Positions 26,217-32,581 of a stretch of DNA of 43,969 nucleotides are shown here, piece by piece. Under the pieces are notes generated by a model. That model searched no databases and had not been told where the DNA came from. It saw only the letters and a program-made list of their open reading frames with translations. A program made the position numbers and the translations under genes. Within the stretch, counting starts at the first letter, position 1, and every line of letters begins with the position of its first letter. Source of the stretch: Escherichia phage SZH-1; sequence record NC_073319.1. The stretch is one strand, 5' to 3'.

Positions 26217-28526
26217 TTAGTACCCCGGCTGACCGCGAGTAGAGCGGCGAGCTTTAGAAATCGGTGAGTTGTTATCCTGTAACTGCGACGCTACTGTTTC
26301 ACTGATTATAATACGTAACCGCCCTTCGTCGTCACGTTCTGTTACGGCAGAATCAACGCGTCCGGTGGTGTTGTTGACGATTGTCACGTTATCACCGCCG
26401 GACTGGCCGCCGTTTTGCCCCATGATTTCTTTCATCTGCTGCGCGGTGCGCACACGCGATGCACCCGCGGGCATGATAACTTCTGGCTTACCACGTTCCG
26501 CTATAGTTGACATCTGACCCGCGGATAACTGACCGCCCTGTTCACGCGCCGAGCGGATTTTGGCGATATTAGCCAGCCCCGCAGCAACGGCGGTAGCCGC
26601 GGCAACCGGAGCCAGGAATGGGCCGACAACAGGGATAGCAGCCGTTGACTTATACGCCTCAATAGCCGATGTGTACGTGGCGATTGTGGCCTGAGCAATA
26701 GCGAACGCTTTATACGCGGTGGACGCCTCGCCAAATGCTGTTTTAGCGTTAGCCGCCATGTCACCGAAAGAACTACCTAAAGCATCCGCACGTTTCGTGG
26801 CGTACTGCTCGTTGATGGCGTTAAGCGCCGCCTGATACTGTTCCTCGTTAATCAGACCCTGTTCGCGGTATTTATCTGCTACAGCCAGTTTCTGCTGTTC
26901 CTGGATGTCGAGAAGCTCAAGCTCAGTAGCGTTCTGGCCCATAATCTGAGCCATGAAGTCGTCACCTTTCTGCTGCTTTTCCTGCTGCTCTTTTCTTTTC
27001 TTATCCAGTTCTTCCTGTCGGGCCTGCTCGGCTGTGAGCATAATTTGAGTTTTGGCGTTTTCGTACTGCTGCTGGTTTATTGTTCCAGCGCGGTTGAACT
27101 CCTCCAGTTTCGCTAGTTTCTGTTCTTCTGCCGCCGTGATTCGAGAAATTTCGTCTCCGGTTGTACGGTCAACCGTAGCGAGAAAATCTTCCGCGGCTTT
27201 CTTCTGGCGTTGTGCCGCTGTTTCTTCGCGTTTGGCTTGTGCCGCCAGACGTTTCTCGTTCGATTTAGCCTCGCGGTCTGCCTTCGCTTTTTCGGTAGCG
27301 TCGATGCGGGCGATGTCTTGCTGTGCTTCCGTGTCACGAGCGGCATTATACGCGGCGATCTGTTCTTTGGTGACGGCTTCACGTTTAGCGAACGCCTGCT
27401 TATCCAGTTCAGCTTGCGCCCGGATGCGCTCACGGTCGCTTAAGATAGCGATTTGCTGGTTTTTGACGATAGCTTCGTTCTGTTCCTGGAATCTCTGCGT
27501 GGTTGAGTTGACGTTACGACCGAGATTCTTTTGGGCCTCCGCCGCAGCGTTTGCCGACTTCTCCGCGTTCTCCAGTGCCGTTGCGTTCTTGTTGGCGTTG
27601 TCCGTCAGGCGGATAAGTTCCGGGTTCAACTGTTTTGTGTTACCGAGCCAGTCGGTAAACACATCGGCGATGCGACGGGCATTCTCGGCGGTTGGCTCTT
27701 TGTTAAACGCACTCTGCGCCGCTATCATCTCCAGCGCCTGGTCACGGTTAACTCCGAACTTACTGCTAAGCTCCGCTATATTCTGCGCCAGCATGTTGAC
27801 GCCTACGATGTTACCCTCGTAAGTGCCGCCAAGTTTTTCTAACGTGTCGCCTACATCCGCACCCTTAGAGACCAATGCATCGTACTGGCTAATAGCGGAT
27901 GCCGTGGAGGCTTTCCATGTCTCCCATGACTCGGCGTCCTCGCGGACAGCTTTAGCTGTTTGCTGCGCGATAAGGTCTGCGTTAGCCTTAGCCAGAGCAA
28001 GCTGAGTCTCCGCCGCTTCTCTGCTGATTTGGGTAAGCTGGATAAGGCCGTCTGTCAGTTCGAGGGAGCCAGATGCCGTTTGCTGGAAAGTATCCTTTAA
28101 CTGCTTCTGCGCAGCTTCGAGGTCTTTTGAACTGCCTTCTGCTTCGGTTAGTGATTTGTACAGGACACCACCAATTGCTGATGCTAGAGCGATTACCGCC
28201 CCGAGCACCGCACCACCAGGGCCGAAAGCGCCAGCAAGTTGGGAACCTTGCTGCCCTATCGCAACGAATGCAGACGTACCGGATTGCAACTGGACTACCA
28301 TGTCCTGCACCTGGAAACCAACCTGCCCAGCAGCGTTACGGAACTTAGCGAAACCGTCGGACGCTGCTTTAGAGGTGGCGGTGTTAACTTTATTAACATC
28401 CGGCGTTAGTTTGTTTACAGATGTGTCCGCCCGGTCTGCGGATGCCGCCATAGCGTCAAGCTGTTTGGCAGCGACGTCAGCCCCTTCAGTTTTTACTCTG
28501 GCGATTAGGGAAGCCGTATCAGCCAT
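26217..28526 (-). CDS. Tail tape measure protein
   Basis: Largest tail ORF, A/Q/E/K-rich coiled-coil character; ATG at 28526 placed just after the chaperone stop. Confidence 0.85.
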   Translation of the reverse strand: MADTASLIARVKTEGADVAAKQLDAMAASADRADTSVNKLTPDVNKVNTATSKAASDGFAKFRNAAGQVGFQVQDMVVQLQSGTSAFVAIGQQGSQLAGAFGPGGAVLGAVIALASAIGGVLYKSLTEAEGSSKDLEAAQKQLKDTFQQTASGSLELTDGLIQLTQISREAAETQLALAKANADLIAQQTAKAVREDAESWETWKASTASAISQYDALVSKGADVGDTLEKLGGTYEGNIVGVNMLAQNIAELSSKFGVNRDQALEMIAAQSAFNKEPTAENARRIADVFTDWLGNTKQLNPELIRLTDNANKNATALENAEKSANAAAEAQKNLGRNVNSTTQRFQEQNEAIVKNQQIAILSDRERIRAQAELDKQAFAKREAVTKEQIAAYNAARDTEAQQDIARIDATEKAKADREAKSNEKRLAAQAKREETAAQRQKKAAEDFLATVDRTTGDEISRITAAEEQKLAKLEEFNRAGTINQQQYENAKTQIMLTAEQARQEELDKKRKEQQEKQQKGDDFMAQIMGQNATELELLDIQEQQKLAVADKYREQGLINEEQYQAALNAINEQYATKRADALGSSFGDMAANAKTAFGEASTAYKAFAIAQATIATYTSAIEAYKSTAAIPVVGPFLAPVAAATAVAAGLANIAKIRSAREQGGQLSAGQMSTIAERGKPEVIMPAGASRVRTAQQMKEIMGQNGGQSGGDNVTIVNNTTGRVDSAVTERDDEGRLRIIISETVASQLQDNNSPISKARRSTRGQPGY

Positions 28527-28905
28527 CTTCTCTGCCCTCAAATATTCCGTCTAAGCCCATGATAACCTCGGCTTCGAACAAACTTATGCCGTAACCGGCG
28601 ACATCACGAAACGCTACCAAATCTTGCCATTTGAGCGCATCGCGCGGGATTATAACGATAGTATCATCTGTTTCGCGCTGTAGGAATTTAATGGCACGGT
28701 ATTTCTCGAACACGTCGATAAGAGAAACGGGGCATTCTGGCCCCGTCGCTTCTTTCATCTGCGGTTCTTTAATCACGCCCATTGCAATCAAAGCCGCCTG
28801 GTGCCCCGCCGCGATGTCGTCGAATTGCTTACGTTTCTGGCGGTCGACAAAGCACCATTGCGCAAATTCATACAGCGCTTTTACTTTTCCGAGAGTTTCT
28901 CGCGG
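28519..28905 (-). CDS. Tail assembly chaperone -1 frame extension (gpT-like part of a G-T fusion)
   Basis: Frame open without a start codon from 28905 to 28519, overlapping the last 25 nt of 28881..29297; slip site GGAAAAG next to the stop. Confidence 0.5.
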   Translation of the reverse strand, partial: PRETLGKVKALYEFAQWCFVDRQKRKQFDDIAAGHQAALIAMGVIKEPQMKEATGPECPVSLIDVFEKYRAIKFLQRETDDTIVIIPRDALKWQDLVAFRDVAGYGISLFEAEVIMGLDGIFEGREDG

Positions 28906-29297
28906 CTATCGGTGTGGTGCTTAACTACGGCTTCTGCCAACCCACTGTACTGGTCAAACAGGTTAGCCAGCGCCTCTTTGCTGAACGGTTCGTCGAATGA
29001 CCAACCGGTGACGATTTCCACGGCAAGCTGCTTGTTCAGGTCCATCACCCGCCAGCCCTTCTCATCATTATAACGCGCCCAGTTATTCAGTGCCTCACAC
29101 TCTTTATCTAATGGCGCAAGTTCTTCCGTAAGGCGTCGAATTGCCGTTGTGTAGGCGCGGCCCGCGCTAACCCCGACATCACAATCAGGACCAATGACCT
29201 GCAACCATTCTCCGGAGTCTTTACCACTCGGCAGAAGGATAGGCATTTTAGTACCGGCAGCGTGTCGGTCAGCAAAATAGAAATCAGAAAGTTTCAT
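28881..29297 (-). CDS. Tail assembly chaperone (gpG-like)
   Basis: Directly upstream of the tape measure gene; AAGGA RBS; carries the frameshift site. Confidence 0.6.
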   Translation of the reverse strand: MKLSDFYFADRHAAGTKMPILLPSGKDSGEWLQVIGPDCDVGVSAGRAYTTAIRRLTEELAPLDKECEALNNWARYNDEKGWRVMDLNKQLAVEIVTGWSFDEPFSKEALANLFDQYSGLAEAVVKHHTDSREKLSEK

Positions 29298-29404
29298 TCT
29301 TTAGTCCTTTGGTTAAGAGGTTACAGGTTAAGGTTGACGCGCCAGACGGGAACCACCCGCTTTTCGTGTGCGACACTAGGCGCAAACTTATTCTAGCACA
29401 CTAC

Positions 29405-29433
29405 TTGCACACCCCAATATAATAGGGTACTAT
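29405..29433 (+). promoter_or_regulatory. Promoter TTGCAC-N17-TACTAT with dyad AATAG-ggta-CTATT for the plus-strand island
   Basis: 27-nt core caccccaatataatagggtactattca identical to the copy at 38263. Confidence 0.5.
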
Positions 29434-29461
29434 TCACCTGTAACTTACTGAGGAAATAATT

Positions 29462-29788
29462 ATGCGTAAATTAGTGTTAGCTCTTGGTTTTATGTCTTTT
29501 GCTACTTTTGGGTCTCCGTGTGAACAGGTGTTTAGTGAATCCGTTCTTATGACTTCTGGTGTGCTTGATAGAGCCGACCCTACTATTGTAAAGGCATTTA
29601 AGGACTCTACAGTTCGCGAGTGTGAGGCCGCCGTGGAGGTTGGTAAATCGGGCCTACCCCCGCAGGCCGTAACCTACACAGTGATACGTTCGGTAGAGAA
29701 AAACGGAGATGCTTTCTATAGCCTACTGACAGCCACCCGTCTGCAAATGGTAATGACAGGGTGGGCGATAGGCGCAGAAAGTAAATAG
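29462..29788 (+). CDS. Secreted/periplasmic small protein (108 aa)
   Basis: Signal-peptide-like MRKLVLALGFMSFATFG; two Cys; GAGGAAA RBS. Confidence 0.55.
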   Translation: MRKLVLALGFMSFATFGSPCEQVFSESVLMTSGVLDRADPTIVKAFKDSTVRECEAAVEVGKSGLPPQAVTYTVIRSVEKNGDAFYSLLTATRLQMVMTGWAIGAESK

Positions 29789-29853
29789 TTGCCTTTATTT
29801 AAAGGAATCCACTGTGGTTAAATAGAACAAATCCTAAACACGAGGAAGTAAGC

Positions 29854-30984
29854 ATGGCCCAGAAGAAAATAACCGACGAACAGTTACAGGAAGAATTGAA
29901 CGCCGGGATGAAGAATGTAGACATCGCCCGTAAATACGGCATCTCAGACCGAGTTATTCGTATCCGTAAAGCGAAGCTGGCTAAGAAAGGTGTAGGCCAC
30001 GGGCGTGACGTTAGCCACCTTGTCCCAGACGGCTACAAGATTAAAGGGACGTCGTCTCTGGTAGACGAGTTCGGCAATACTAAGTTGCAATGGGTTAAGA
30101 CAGACACCGACGCTGAACGTCAGGTCGAGTTGATGAAAGCCGTGATTGAAGGCATGAAGTCAGAGATTACGCCAGTTGCGCCGGCTAAAGCGACTCGAGC
30201 CAAACGCGACGACAAGCTACTCAATCTTTACACGGTATCTGATTTCCATCTCGGTATGCTTGCCTGGGCCGACGAGAGCGGCGACGACTGGGATATAAAG
30301 ATTGCGGAAGACCTGTTCTCTCGTTGGTTCGACGCGGCGTTTCAGAAAGCACCGGATGCAGGAACAGGAGTTATTAACCTGCTGGGTGATTTCGCGCACT
30401 TCGATAGTCTGGATGCCGTTACACCTGAGTCGCGTCACGTGTTGGACGCAGACACTCGCTACCAGAAACTCGTCCGCTACATGATTCGTATGGTACGCCG
30501 TGTTGTAGATATGGCACTGGTTAAACATAAAAATGTTCGCTTGCTTATCGTACAGGGGAACCATGACCCTGTAGGCTCTGTATGGCTGGCTGAAATGTTC
30601 ACAGTTTTATATTCGAACGACAGCCGAGTGATTGTCGATACGTCGCCGGATGTTTACAAGATGGTGCAACACGGAAAAACGACGTTGTTCTTTCACCACG
30701 GGCATAAGGCGCGATTCGATGCTATCGAACCGGTTATGATTGCCAAATTCCGCAAAGCGTTCGGCGAGAGTGTTTACAGCTACGCCCACGTCGGCCACCT
30801 GCACCACCAGAAGATTGTAGAAAGCCGTAACATGATTGTTGAGCAACACCGCACCTTAGCGGCTAAAGACGCCTACGCCTCCCGCGGCGGATGGATGTCG
30901 GGCCGTAGTGCAAACGTAATTACTTATAGCGCCGAATATGGCGAGGTCGCGCGTTTAACTATTTCACCGGAGATGTTGGGATGA
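29854..30984 (+). CDS. HTH-fused calcineurin-like metallophosphoesterase
   Basis: N-terminal HTH NVDIARKYGISDRVIRIRKAKL; all five metallophosphoesterase motifs: SDFHLG, LLGDFAHFD, VQGNHD, FFHHGH, HVGHLHH. Confidence 0.75.
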   Translation: MAQKKITDEQLQEELNAGMKNVDIARKYGISDRVIRIRKAKLAKKGVGHGRDVSHLVPDGYKIKGTSSLVDEFGNTKLQWVKTDTDAERQVELMKAVIEGMKSEITPVAPAKATRAKRDDKLLNLYTVSDFHLGMLAWADESGDDWDIKIAEDLFSRWFDAAFQKAPDAGTGVINLLGDFAHFDSLDAVTPESRHVLDADTRYQKLVRYMIRMVRRVVDMALVKHKNVRLLIVQGNHDPVGSVWLAEMFTVLYSNDSRVIVDTSPDVYKMVQHGKTTLFFHHGHKARFDAIEPVMIAKFRKAFGESVYSYAHVGHLHHQKIVESRNMIVEQHRTLAAKDAYASRGGWMSGRSANVITYSAEYGEVARLTISPEMLG

Positions 30985-31384: not shown

Positions 31385-31411
31385 AAGGCCCCGAAAGGGG
31401 CCTTAGTTTTA
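31385..31411. terminator. Bidirectional terminator between the plus-strand island and the major tail gene
   Basis: AAGGCCCC-gaaa-GGGGCCTT with T-tracts on both strands. Confidence 0.65.
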
Positions 31412-32581
31412 TGCGTAGGTGATACGCTGGATAATAATGGACGACTGGTACTGGTTGCCGGTTGCCTGGCCTTCAATGGACTGAGTGATTGACTCAGGTC
31501 CTCCAATCTCAGGTGTGACCGCCGTAAGTTCTGCGCGTTTCAGACTGAAAGACATAGCACCGTTTACTCCCGCCAGAATAGAGTTAATCTCTACCTGCTG
31601 TTCATTGATAAACTTCTGAATCATCGCCATGTCGTACAGCTTGCCGGAGATGGAGAAGGTGTTAGCCGCGCGACCGCGTTCCACGAACGCAACGCTACTG
31701 TTGCCAAGTTCGAACTGCGCAGAAGCACCGTTGTCGTTGGTGATGGTCAGAGTATCGCAACGCAACGGCGTTGAGCCATCGAACACAGAAACATCAACCG
31801 AAGAGAACGGCTCGTCGCCAAACGTAACAGATGAGAAGTTGGAACCGGTCGGCGGCGTAGTGAGAATCTCCTGACTGCGGCCGATGAATGGGAAGCTGCC
31901 AGTTACCATCGCGTTAACAGCCTGTTCGATGGTAAAACCAGAAACTTCCACGCCTTTGGTTAACGTGTACGCGTCAGTACCGCCGCACTGGCCTTTGTAC
32001 CAGGTAAGGATAGAGAACGTCTTACACGTGTTACCGGTTTCCAGCGTGTCGCCGGTTTTAGCCTTACTAGTTTTTGTCTCGGTGGTCAGGGTGTGTTGGA
32101 TGCCCGCACCAGTAACAACCGTAGCCGTTACTGCAGTAACAATAAATGGTTTTGCGTTATCGCCTGTTAAATCGGTAAATGCAATCAGGTCGCCTACCCC
32201 AACTCCGTCAGCGATAAAACTGCCGGTGGCGCGTGTGAACGTCTTGCCCGCGGGTGCGACGGTAATCGACAGACTGGACAGGGAAACACCGGATTGCCAC
32301 GTAGAGCCTAAAGCACCAGCTAGCCAGTCATCCTGGCTTTTCGAGCTAAGCTCGATCGCGTATTCACCGCTAACCTGTTTGTTACCGGTGCGGATGGATG
32401 TAGTTTCACGGCTGCCGTCCAGTTCGTTGGAAGTCAGCGCATCGCGGGTTACGGCAGGAACGCCACCAGTGTTACGCAACGGAGACCAGACCGGGTTACT
32501 TGGTGTTACGCCCGGGGTCACTTCTGCCACATAGAATTGCGCGGTATTCGCGCCCTTAAAAGGAGTTGTAGCCATATTCAC
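31409..32581 (-). CDS. Major tail protein
   Basis: 390-aa T/S/G-rich protein between tail completion genes and the chaperone genes. Confidence 0.65.
   Translation of the reverse strand: MNMATTPFKGANTAQFYVAEVTPGVTPSNPVWSPLRNTGGVPAVTRDALTSNELDGSRETTSIRTGNKQVSGEYAIELSSKSQDDWLAGALGSTWQSGVSLSSLSITVAPAGKTFTRATGSFIADGVGVGDLIAFTDLTGDNAKPFIVTAVTATVVTGAGIQHTLTTETKTSKAKTGDTLETGNTCKTFSILTWYKGQCGGTDAYTLTKGVEVSGFTIEQAVNAMVTGSFPFIGRSQEILTTPPTGSNFSSVTFGDEPFSSVDVSVFDGSTPLRCDTLTITNDNGASAQFELGNSSVAFVERGRAANTFSISGKLYDMAMIQKFINEQQVEINSILAGVNGAMSFSLKRAELTAVTPEIGGPESITQSIEGQATGNQYQSSIIIQRITYA

What the first reader, a model, noticed from the sequence alone, without database searches (positions are those of the whole stretch)
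28881..28905. Likely programmed -1 frameshift joining the tail chaperone to its extension
The downstream frame is open back to 28905 with no start codon and overlaps the last 25 nt of the gpG-like gene. On the coding strand the overlap reads ...CUC-GGA-AAA-GUA-A..., a GGAAAAG heptamer one substitution away from lambda's GGGAAAG G-T slip site, lying directly on the stop codon. A -1 slip here would yield the conserved G-T fusion.
Basis: partly seen in the sequence, partly recalled or inferred. Interest (0 to 1): 0.5.

Follow-up and report, generated by a model that had tools for sequence, protein, structure and literature searches.

The report
Tail chaperone −1 frameshift site
This is a real but ordinary phage feature: a ribosomal −1 slip at the last codon of a tail-assembly chaperone gene that makes a longer fusion protein. 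It is already annotated in sister phages, though its slip signal is weaker and less standard than lambda's.

Summary
On the minus strand, a 138-aa tail assembly chaperone gene (29297..28881) ends ...TCG GAA AAG TAA. The −1 frame is open from 28905 to 28519 and has no start codon for its first 38 codons. The tape measure gene follows.

The window is Escherichia phage SZH-1 (Kagunavirus). RefSeq K1H and K1ind1, and phages Shemara, Shelanagig and AH01, already annotate the joined frameshift product here.

Comparative evidence strongly supports a −1 frameshift:
- A_AAG is present in every one of about 55 distinct relatives, and a stop follows it directly in all but one.
- The extension evolves as coding sequence from the junction onward.
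- No start codon is conserved.
- Distant homologues carry canonical U_UUU_UUC heptamers at the same junction.

G_GAA_AAG is published as a poorly slippery control. The codon before AAG varies (GAA, GCA, GTA, GGA, TCA), so the conserved core is A_AAG plus the stop.

No Shine-Dalgarno-like or RNA-structure stimulator is conserved. An unexplained synonymous constraint (GCG YTG) lies 5 nt downstream.

No experimental proof was found for this phage group. The mechanism is a known kind, so interest is low to moderate.

The parts
28881..29297 (-). Tail assembly chaperone gene (G-like), 138 aa, zero frame. It is identical to YP_010749261.1 of Escherichia phage SZH-1.
   Evidence: ORF and translation. 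Pfam PF08748 Phage_TAC_4 at 7.9e-9, 36.2 bits against a 21.1 cut-off. phrog_15027 positions 1-138 of 259. Exact database match.
28884..28890 (-). Slip site G_GAA_AAG (zero-frame codons GAA = Glu137, AAG = Lys138). The conserved core is A_AAG at 28887..28884.
   Evidence: Sequence. A_AAG is present in every family member examined. The preceding codon is always NNA: GAA, GCA, GTA, GGA or TCA.
28881..28883 (-). Zero-frame stop TAA directly 3' of the slip codon. It is overlapped by the −1-frame Val codon GTA (28884..28882).
   Evidence: Stop TAA or TAG abuts AAG in all but one of about 55 distinct relatives. The Val139 codon is GTA in 46 of 46 sampled sequences, whereas other Val columns vary freely.
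28881..28905 (-). The 25-nt overlap in which both frames are open. The −1 frame is closed upstream by TAG at 28908..28906. Any frame change must occur here.
   Evidence: In six relatives the equivalent window is only 19 nt, which confines the shift to the last five codons.
28871..28878 (-). Synonymously constrained block GCGCTGTA (−1-frame codons Ala141 GCG, Leu142 CTG, Tyr143 TA-), starting 5 nt after the slip site. Its function is unexplained.
   Evidence: In the homology-selected sample, only K138, V139, A141 and L142 out of 57 conserved degenerate codon columns show no synonymous variation. In Jerseyvirus, Shashou and Hafnia phages, Leu142 is TTG, so the block is GCG-YTG. No pairing partner was found.
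28519..28884 (-). T-like extension read in the −1 frame (121 codons plus TGA at 28521..28519). The predicted fusion is join(29297..28884, 28884..28519), 259 aa, with junction ...LSEK|VKALYEF...
   Evidence: Translation. Pfam PF23812 Phage_TAC_18 at 8.2e-18. phrog_15027 positions 139-259 of 259. Third-codon-position periodicity and no stops in this frame across 39 distinct relatives, upstream of any start codon.
26217..28526 (-). Tape measure protein gene (769 aa from ATG 28526). Its start overlaps the T stop by 8 nt (ATGGCTGA).
   Evidence: phrog_1538 at 4e-197. Gene calls of 769 aa in identical contigs. K1H annotation. Sequence.
31409..32581 (-). Context: tail (tube) protein gene upstream of the chaperone. 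It is separated from the chaperone by a divergently oriented two-gene block.
   Evidence: phrog_290 tail protein at 1.4e-80. Orthologues are annotated as tail tube protein (T5-like) in Shashou, and PF18906 Phage_tube_2 occupies the same position in relatives.

Best explanation
A programmed −1 ribosomal frameshift occurs at the last sense codon of the tail assembly chaperone gene.

Most ribosomes read ...GAA AAG, terminate at TAA and release the 138-aa chaperone. A minority slip back one nucleotide. tRNA-Lys re-pairs from AAG to AAA, and tRNA-Glu re-pairs imperfectly from GAA to GGA through a middle-position G:U pair. Those ribosomes then read GUA AAA GCG CUG ... and make a 259-aa G-T fusion (...LSEK-VKALYEF...).

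By analogy with lambda gpG/gpGT, the G part would bind the tape measure protein and the T part would recruit the tail tube protein. A low fixed GT:G ratio would then be set by the slip frequency.

What is shown and what is inferred:
- Shown here: the frame architecture, the gene identities, family-wide selection on A_AAG, on the abutting stop and on G at position −7, coding in the −1 frame from the junction, and the absence of a conserved start.
- Inferred: that the fusion is actually made, its frequency, and its function.

The slip could occur with Lys-tRNA in the A site (tandem slip during translocation). It could also occur with Lys-tRNA in the P site while the stop codon waits for a release factor. 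I favour some contribution from the stop, because no other stimulator is conserved. Both routes give the same protein.
For: - Gene identities and order: tube, G, T, tape measure.
- One PHROG profile of 259 positions covers G at 1-138 and the extension at 139-259.
- Joined CDSs are annotated in RefSeq K1H and K1ind1 and in Shemara, Shelanagig and AH01.
- In 46 distinct fusions (G identity 99% down to 43%), the −1 frame is always open for about 120 codons and the +1 frame is closed.
- A_AAG is invariant. Codon 137 encodes five different amino acids but always ends in A.
- When codon 137 is GAA, GTA, GGA or TCA, position −7 is always G, across seven different preceding codons for GAA. When it is GCA, position −7 is free. 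Fisher p = 0.008 over distinct codon combinations.
- Only the four junction codons lack synonymous variation, out of 57 conserved columns.
- No start codon is conserved. In some relatives the first one is at codon 47, 57 or 94.
- The 84 nt after the junction have third-position diversity of 15.5 against 7.1 and 7.4, and no stops in the −1 frame.
- Five distant homologues have canonical in-frame U_UUU_UUC or A_AAU_UUU heptamers in the equivalent overlap.
- A_AAG is the best −1 tetramer in E. coli, and NNA_AAG hexamers are used by IS1222 and B. subtilis cdd (PMC4066793, PMC5009743).
Against: - I found no experimental detection of the fusion for any Guernseyvirinae phage.
- G_GAA_AAG gave mainly 0-frame product in a reconstituted system and is described as unfavourable for slippage (PMC6924986).
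- A_AAG alone was barely above background (0.147% vs 0.112%) without a pseudoknot (PMC4066793).
- No SD-like element is present upstream: none in 54 of 60 junctions.
- No conserved or stable downstream structure exists.
- The Atkins review states that a slow A site matters more for +1 than for −1 shifting.
- One relative (L188) has the stop displaced by one codon.
- Annotators of Shashou and Snoke concluded there is "no canonical slippery sequence" and started the T ORF at a TTG.
Confidence: 0.85

Rival explanations
1. The extension is translated on its own from the Leu142 codon (CTG here, TTG in Jerseyviruses), 5 nt after the chaperone's stop. This might happen by termination-reinitiation and would give a free 118-aa T protein rather than a fusion.
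For: - Codon 142 is restricted to CTG or TTG, both possible weak initiators, and never another Leu codon.
- The stop lies 5 nt upstream in nearly all relatives.
- Shashou and Snoke annotators start the ORF at this TTG, with AGGA inside the slip site as RBS.
- Bas76 and PHROG 4557 start it at the same codon.
Against: - CTG is a very poor initiator in E. coli (general knowledge), and it is the codon in this window and most clades.
- AGCAAAG and CGCAAAG variants have no SD-like sequence.
- This model does not explain the invariance of AAG over AAA, of A at the third position of codon 137, or of G at −7.
- Distant homologues have canonical heptamers and no start.
- In lambda, the T domain works only when tethered to G (PMC5009743).
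- It could coexist with frameshifting rather than replace it.
Confidence: 0.08
2. The downstream ORF starts at its first conventional start (TTG 28791 or ATG 28782, Met34 of the extension). Automatic gene callers call it this way, giving an 87-90 aa protein. The 98-nt stretch after the chaperone stop would then be non-coding.
For: - Gene callers predict an 87-aa product with a Phage_TAC_18 hit in identical contigs.
- The ORF listing gives a 90-aa ORF from the TTG.
- The ATG is present in many relatives.
Against: - The 84 nt upstream of these starts show codon periodicity and no stops in the −1 frame across 39 distinct sequences, with conserved residues ALY..A....V...K...FD.I..GH.
- Shemara-like loci, L016, L018-20 and L030 lack a start at that position.
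- No SD-like sequence precedes it in the window.
Confidence: 0.04
3. The frame change is made at the RNA level, by transcriptional slippage on the A run, not by the ribosome.
For: The site contains an A4 run, and transcriptional slippage is used in some phage and bacterial genes (PMC5009743, title and scope).
Against: - Four A's is far shorter than the runs known to cause productive RNA polymerase slippage (established knowledge).
- Relatives with GCAAAG or GTAAAG have only three A's.
- The selection on AAG over AAA and on the adjacent stop points to the ribosome.
Confidence: 0.01

Closest known systems
Phage lambda G/GT tail assembly chaperone frameshift (Levin, Hendrix & Casjens 1993; Xu, Hendrix & Duda 2004, 2013, 2014; as summarised in PMC5009743)
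   Same: Both have two overlapping ORFs just upstream of the tape measure gene. In both, the second is in the −1 frame without its own start, and the slip ends on AAG read by tRNA-Lys. The first −1 codon encodes Val in both. Neither has a stimulatory RNA structure. The expected outcome is a low fixed GT:G ratio.
   Different: - Lambda uses the canonical G_GGA_AAG, five codons before the stop. Here the site is G_GAA_AAG (a second-position mismatch for the first tRNA) and directly abuts the stop.
- The proteins belong to different Pfam families: lambda has Phage_TAC_2 and Phage_tail_T, this window has Phage_TAC_4 and Phage_TAC_18.
- Here the tube gene and the chaperone gene are separated by a divergent gene block.
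NNA_AAG hexanucleotide / A_AAG tetranucleotide −1 sites: IS1222 (G_CGA_AAG) and Bacillus subtilis cdd (A_CGA_AAG)
   Same: tRNA-Lys slips alone from AAG to AAA, with little or no re-pairing of the preceding tRNA. Efficiency depends on the wobble properties of the tRNA reading the NNA codon (PMC5009743). The GCA, GTA and TCA variants in this family fit that class.
   Different: The window's own site has a GAA first codon with G at −7, so it is intermediate between a hexamer and a heptamer. The known examples rely on SD-like or structural stimulators, and none is conserved here.
E. coli dnaX (A_AAA_AAG)
   Same: The same shift-prone AAG codon and the same single tRNA-Lys.
   Different: dnaX needs an upstream SD-like element and a downstream hairpin and reaches 50-80% efficiency. 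Neither element is present here, so the efficiency is probably far lower.
Existing annotations of the orthologous site in Guernseyvirinae (RefSeq K1H NC_027994 gp21, K1ind1 NC_041897 gp23; Shemara, Shelanagig, AH01)
   Same: The same genes and, for K1H, an identical junction sequence. The joined CDS is 779 nt, which means one base is read twice.
   Different: These are predictions, and I could find no published analysis of the slip signal. Other records of the same group (Bas76, Shashou, Snoke, Ro145clw, TS33, Kenya-K22) and the gene calls for this phage do not annotate the fusion.

Membership tests
Tailed-phage G/GT-type tail assembly chaperone with programmed frameshift (Xu, Hendrix & Duda 2004) | A pair of overlapping ORFs lying between the major tail (tube) gene and the tape measure gene, immediately 5' of the latter | tested here: met
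   The order on the minus strand is tube (31409..32581), G (29297..28881), T frame (28905..28519), tape measure (28526..26217). One deviation: two divergently oriented genes (29462..30984, + strand) sit between the tube gene and G.
Tailed-phage G/GT-type tail assembly chaperone with programmed frameshift (Xu, Hendrix & Duda 2004) | The second ORF is in the −1 (or +1) frame, has no initiation signal of its own, and is conserved as coding from the overlap onward | tested here: met
   It is in the −1 frame. The first start codon is 38 codons into the open frame here and up to codon 94 after the junction in relatives. Codon periodicity and no stops are seen upstream of any start. Caveat: codon 142 is CTG or TTG.
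Tailed-phage G/GT-type tail assembly chaperone with programmed frameshift (Xu, Hendrix & Duda 2004) | A shift-prone sequence in the correct register inside the overlap | tested here: met
   A_AAG is in register, invariant across the family, and lies inside the smallest (19-nt) overlaps. The full canonical X_XXY_YYZ form is not met in the window (G_GAA_AAG). It is met only in one relative, L043 (G_GGA_AAG), and in distant homologues.
Tailed-phage G/GT-type tail assembly chaperone with programmed frameshift (Xu, Hendrix & Duda 2004) | The fusion protein is actually produced at a low ratio to the short product and is needed for tail assembly | not testable with these tools
   This needs infected-cell proteomics, reporter assays or phage genetics. 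No such data were found in the literature held.
Lambda gpG / gpT protein families (Pfam PF06894 Phage_TAC_2; PF06223 Phage_tail_T) | Sequence membership above the Pfam gathering score | tested here: not met
   Lambda G and T hit PF06894 and PF06223. The window's proteins hit only PF08748 Phage_TAC_4 and PF23812 Phage_TAC_18. They are functional analogues, not members of the same sequence families.
Pfam Phage_TAC_4 (PF08748) + Phage_TAC_18 (PF23812) chaperone pair; PHROG 15027 | Scores above curated cut-offs, and full-length match to the fusion-length profile | tested here: met
   36.2 bits against a 21.1 cut-off and 64.8 bits against 27. phrog_15027 matches at 3.8e-65 over positions 1-138 and 7.4e-61 over positions 139-259 of 259.
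Stimulated −1 PRF cassettes (dnaX / IS3 / IS911 type) | An upstream SD-like element about 10 nt 5' and/or a downstream hairpin or pseudoknot 5-9 nt 3' of the slip site | tested here: not met
   No SD-like motif in 54 of 60 junctions. RNAalifold consensus energy is −0.1 kcal/mol with no covariation. No conserved complement to the 3' block. The window's downstream folds have z-scores of +0.4 to +1.4.

The most novel reading that the evidence does not exclude
The Guernseyvirinae G-T junction may be a distinct, structure-independent recoding cassette. In this reading, an intrinsically weak slip site (G_GNA_AAG or NNA_AAG) is made productive by the abutting stop codon and by a linear element, GCG-YUG. 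That element is synonymously constrained, sits exactly 5 nt downstream, and has no pairing partner. It could act through contacts with the ribosome or a release factor. Alternatively, it could double as a weak re-initiation codon, so that both a G-T fusion and free T are made.
Probability: 0.2. Interest if true: 0.55.

Novelty: already known. Interest (0 to 1): 0.28.

Why it matters
**Annotation.** The 259-aa fusion is missing from this phage's gene calls, which leave a false 98-nt "intergenic gap" and an 87-aa fragment. Records of the same phage group disagree with each other. The comparative evidence here settles which annotation is right: join at the G of AAG.

**Recoding biology.** The family offers a natural series of slip-site variants (G_GAA_, G_GUA_, G_GGA_, G_GCA_, A_GCA_, C_GCA_ and G_UCA_AAG). 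All are followed by a stop, and none has an SD-like or structural stimulator. The series could be used to test how far a stop codon and linear 3' context can substitute for classical stimulators of −1 shifting.

**Phage engineering.** Kagunaviruses are used against K1 E. coli. Recoding or codon-optimising this junction would probably disturb tail assembly.

Tried and rejected
- **Downstream stimulatory structure.** RNAalifold on 13 diverse sequences gave no consensus structure. Single-sequence folds differ between clades. The window's own downstream 40-90 nt fold no better than shuffles. Rejected.
- **A pairing partner for the constrained GCGCUGU block, allowing G:U pairs.** The best position is shared by only 24 of 45 sequences, all from one clade. 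There is no other invariant run of 4 nt or more within −420..+380. Rejected.
- **The 17-nt motif AAAGTARNNGCGCTGTA as a portable cassette in unrelated phages.** Of 120 IMG/VR hits, 51 are homologues and 69 lack the architecture. The one apparent lead, L058, is an ordinary gene with its own AGGAGG..ATG start. Rejected.
- **Upstream SD-like stimulator.** Absent.
- **Natural single-ORF G-T fusions in metagenome gene calls.** The search returned only G-domain hits, so it is uninformative.
- **Solved structures by sequence.** None.
- **Literature.**
  - No experimental report was found for Kagunavirus, Jerseyvirus or Guernseyvirinae.
  - The Jerseyvirinae paper (PMID 25663216), cited in GenBank notes as predicting a secondary structure here, is not held.
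  - The thermodynamic dnaX study has no data for second-position mismatches.
- **Correction to an early claim.** I first took the GCGCTGT block to be strictly invariant. Wider sampling corrected this to GCG-YTG. Stop adjacency likewise has one exception.
- **Transcriptional slippage.** Rejected because the A run is only 3-4 nt long.

Full report
**1. The observation.**
The region was read on both strands. On the minus strand, an ATG at 29297 opens a 138-aa ORF ending ...AAA CTC TCG GAA AAG TAA, with the stop at 28883..28881. Relative to it, the −1 frame has a TAG at 28908..28906 and is then open from 28905 to a TGA at 28521..28519. The overlap is exactly the 25 nt reported. The first ATG/GTG/TTG in the −1 frame is the TTG at 28791, 38 codons in. 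GGAAAAG lies at 28890..28884 in the register G_GAA_AAG, and its last base is followed by the stop. Lambda's own site, read from NC_001416, is GCG GGA AAG TGT TCG ACG GTG AGC TGA. The heptamer here therefore differs from lambda's by one base, and lambda's site lies five codons before its stop. The bare heptamer occurs 5 times in the window against 5.9 expected. On its own it means nothing; context carries the weight.

**2. What the genes are.**
- The 138-aa protein matches Pfam Phage_TAC_4 (36.2 bits, cut-off 21.1).
- The −1-frame product matches Phage_TAC_18 (64.8 bits, cut-off 27).
- One PHROG, 15027 "tail assembly chaperone", has a 259-position profile. It is matched at positions 1-138 by the first protein and 139-259 by the second, so public records already contain the fused protein.
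- The next gene is the tape measure protein (phrog_1538, 4e-197). Its ATG at 28526 overlaps the extension's stop.
- Upstream lies a tail tube-type gene at 31409..32581. It is separated from the chaperone by two genes on the other strand.
- The chaperone is identical to YP_010749261.1 of Escherichia phage SZH-1, on a contig of 43,969 bp, the window's length. The closest records in the phage collection are K1H/K1G-like Kagunaviruses at about 96% identity.

**3. Existing annotation.**
RefSeq K1H (identical junction sequence) and K1ind1 carry a two-piece joined CDS of 779-782 nt, which implies one base read twice. Salmonella phages Shemara and Shelanagig carry "tail assembly chaperone frameshift product", and Pantoea phage AH01 also has a joined CDS. 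Other records do not:
- Bas76 starts a separate ORF at the CTG five nt after the stop.
- Shashou and Snoke start it at a TTG in the same position. The Shashou paper says there is "no canonical slippery sequence" (PMC6776780).
- Ro145clw, Tsm2, TS33 and Kenya-K22 annotate fragments.
- For the window's own sequence, the exact 259-aa fusion is not in the protein collection. Gene callers give an 87-aa ORF from Met34, leaving a 98-nt gap.

**4. Comparative test of the frameshift.**
I collected 50 IMG/VR loci by homology to the chaperone alone, plus GenBank and metagenome relatives.

- *Architecture.* In 46 distinct fusions with chaperone identity from 99% to 43%, the −1 frame is always open for about 120 codons past the stop, and the +1 frame is closed.
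- *Junction sequences.* Among 45 distinct junctions the decamers are:

  | Decamer | Count |
  |---|---|
  | GGAAAAGTAG | 22 |
  | GGAAAAGTAA | 13 |
  | GGTAAAGTAG | 4 |
  | AGCAAAGTAA | 3 |
  | GGGAAAGTAG | 1 |
  | GGCAAAGTAG | 1 |
  | CGCAAAGTAG | 1 |

. A_AAG is invariant. Codon 137 encodes Glu, Ala, Val, Gly or Ser but always ends in A.
- *Synonymous constraint.* Of 57 conserved degenerate codon columns in the fusion alignment, only Lys138 AAG, Val139 GTA, Ala141 GCG and Leu142 CTG show no synonymous variation. The other 53 have a major codon at 30-89%.
- *No conserved start.* No start codon is conserved in the extension. The first one lies at codon 47, 57 or 94 in some clades, and the smallest overlaps are 19 nt.
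- *Coding signal.* The 84 nt after the junction, upstream of any start in the window, have third-position diversity of 15.5 against 7.1 and 7.4. They have no stops in the −1 frame, against 27 and 115 in the other frames, across 39 distinct sequences.
- *Distant homologues.* Five distant homologues (27-35% identity) lack the AAAG-stop junction. Each has a canonical in-frame heptamer inside the −1-open overlap (U_UUU_UUC in four, A_AAU_UUU in one) and no nearby start.

Together these results show that the extension is translated from the junction and that frameshifting is the ancestral way this chaperone family expresses it.

**5. How the slip probably works.**
A_AAG is the best −1 tetramer in E. 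coli, because the single tRNA-Lys pairs better with AAA than with AAG. Alone, however, it was barely above background (0.147% vs 0.112%), and it reached 5.6% only with a pseudoknot (PMC4066793). NNA_AAG hexamers are used by IS1222 and occur in B. subtilis cdd. Their efficiency depends on the wobble behaviour of the tRNA reading NNA (PMC5009743).

The exact heptamer of this window, G GAA AAG, was the "unfavorable for slippage" control of Peng et al. tRNA-Glu would face a second-position mismatch on GGA, and the site gave mainly 0-frame product (PMC6924986). So the site is intrinsically weaker than lambda's.

The family data still suggest that the first tRNA matters. With GAA, GTA, GGA or TCA as codon 137, position −7 is always G, across seven different preceding codons for GAA. 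With GCA it is A, C or G. Fisher p = 0.008 over distinct codon combinations, not phylogenetically corrected. From general knowledge, GCA is read by a cmo5U34 tRNA of the shift-permissive class. PRFect's survey notes the same GAA→GGA re-pairing through G:U in about a thousand actinophage GGGGGAA sites, and it lists a "twofour" motif class that GGAAAA fits (PMC10885494).

Classical stimulators are absent:
- No SD-like motif upstream in 54 of 60 junctions.
- No consensus structure downstream.
- No stable fold in the window.

What is conserved instead is the stop codon directly after AAG, in all but one of about 55 distinct sequences. In the exception, L188, the stop sits one codon later. The base after the stop is A or C in 58 of 60 junctions and never G. 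I infer that slow termination, with Lys-tRNA in the P site, adds time for the slip. This is inference only, and the Atkins review cautions that a slow A site matters more for +1 than for −1 shifting. Tandem and P-site slips give the same protein...LSEK-VKALYEF....

**6. An unexplained element.**
Five nt after the slip site, the codons Ala141-Leu142 read GCG CTG in every sequence of the first sample. Wider sampling showed GCG TTG in Jerseyviruses, Shashou/Snoke and Hafnia TS33, so the constraint is GCG-YTG. Several observations bear on it:
- Its spacing from A_AAG is kept even where the stop has moved.
- It has no conserved pairing partner.
- It is not found at chaperone junctions outside this family.
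- It is absent from the distant homologues that use canonical heptamers. That hints at a link with the weak slip site.

It may be a linear 3' context element. It may also mark a weak (re)initiation codon, which is the main rival reading.

**7. Rivals.**
- *Initiation at codon 142.* This would explain the YTG restriction and the nearby stop. It would not explain the selection on A_AAG, on NNA at codon 137 or on G at −7. It also fits poorly with CTG as the codon in most clades and with variants that lack any SD-like sequence.
- *Initiation at Met34.* This is contradicted by the coding signal upstream of it and by clades that lack that start.
- *Transcriptional slippage.* This is implausible on a run of 3-4 A's.

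**8. Comparison and verdict.**
Functionally this is the lambda G/GT arrangement. By sequence, the proteins belong to other families: Phage_TAC_4 and Phage_TAC_18, against lambda's Phage_TAC_2 and Phage_tail_T. The slip signal is closer to the NNA_AAG class than to a canonical heptamer. It is therefore not new.

What is worth keeping:
- The corrected annotation for this phage.
- The finding that the conserved core is A_AAG plus the stop, not a lambda-like heptamer.
- The unexplained GCG-YTG constraint.
- The fact that no experiment has yet shown the fusion in this phage group.

Noticed in passing
window 29298-30984 (intergenic 29298-29461; + strand genes 29462..29788 and 29854..30984): A divergently oriented block sits between the tail tube gene and the chaperone gene, breaking the usual tube-G-T-TMP contiguity. 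It holds a 108-aa protein of unknown function and a 376-aa DNA repair exonuclease (phrog_704). The intergenic region holds a back-to-back pair of sigma-70-like promoter matches (29444-29416 on −, 29433-29460 on +; 2 found vs 0.3 expected). The chaperone and tape measure genes therefore probably start their own transcription unit.
   Followed up: partly
window 28519-28541: The tape measure gene most likely starts at ATG 28526 (769 aa, as in gene calls and K1H), not at the TTG 28541 listed mechanically. Its start overlaps the extension's stop in ATGGCTGA, a typical coupling arrangement.
   Followed up: partly
window 28878-28886: In the zero frame the stop is flanked by identical Lys codons (AAG TAA AAG). 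This is the layout of synthetic "stop-hop" constructs mentioned in PMC5009743. A hop would add a 30-residue zero-frame tail. It is seen only in K1H-like phages (TAA AAG), not in relatives (TAG ACG), so it is probably incidental.
   Followed up: no
L043 (IMGVR_UViG_2974654489_000001), junction near 1905-1925: This is a natural variant with lambda's exact canonical heptamer, CAG GGA AAG TAG. It differs from its close relatives (CAG GAA AAG TAG) by one base. The optimum is one mutation away yet rare, which suggests selection for a low slip rate or for Glu137.
   Followed up: partly
L188 (ENA ERZ27251535 k141_1427969), 1115-1150: This is the only relative whose stop is not directly after AAG. It reads GCA AAG TTA TAG CGCTGTAC, with Val139 as GTT. 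The spacing between A_AAG and the GCGCTG block is unchanged.
   Followed up: partly
window 28889-28905 (minus strand CCGCGAGAAACUCUCGG): A small hairpin (CCG.GAG...CUC.CGG) ends on the first two bases of the slip heptamer. It appears in the centroid fold (−6.1 kcal/mol), but the 60-nt segment folds no better than shuffles (z = 0.51). The sequence is not conserved outside close relatives.
   Followed up: partly
proteins P0021, P0027, P0030, P0032, P0041 (loci L190-L192): Some metagenomic chaperone homologues are called with N-terminal extensions of 25-45 residues (162-181 aa) before the conserved M-K-L-S-D-F-Y start. These could be real extensions or upstream-start artefacts of gene calling.
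   Followed up: no
whole window: The window appears to be the complete 43,969-bp genome of Escherichia phage SZH-1. That record is not among the hits from the phage collection searched, where the best match is 96.3% identical.
   Followed up: partly
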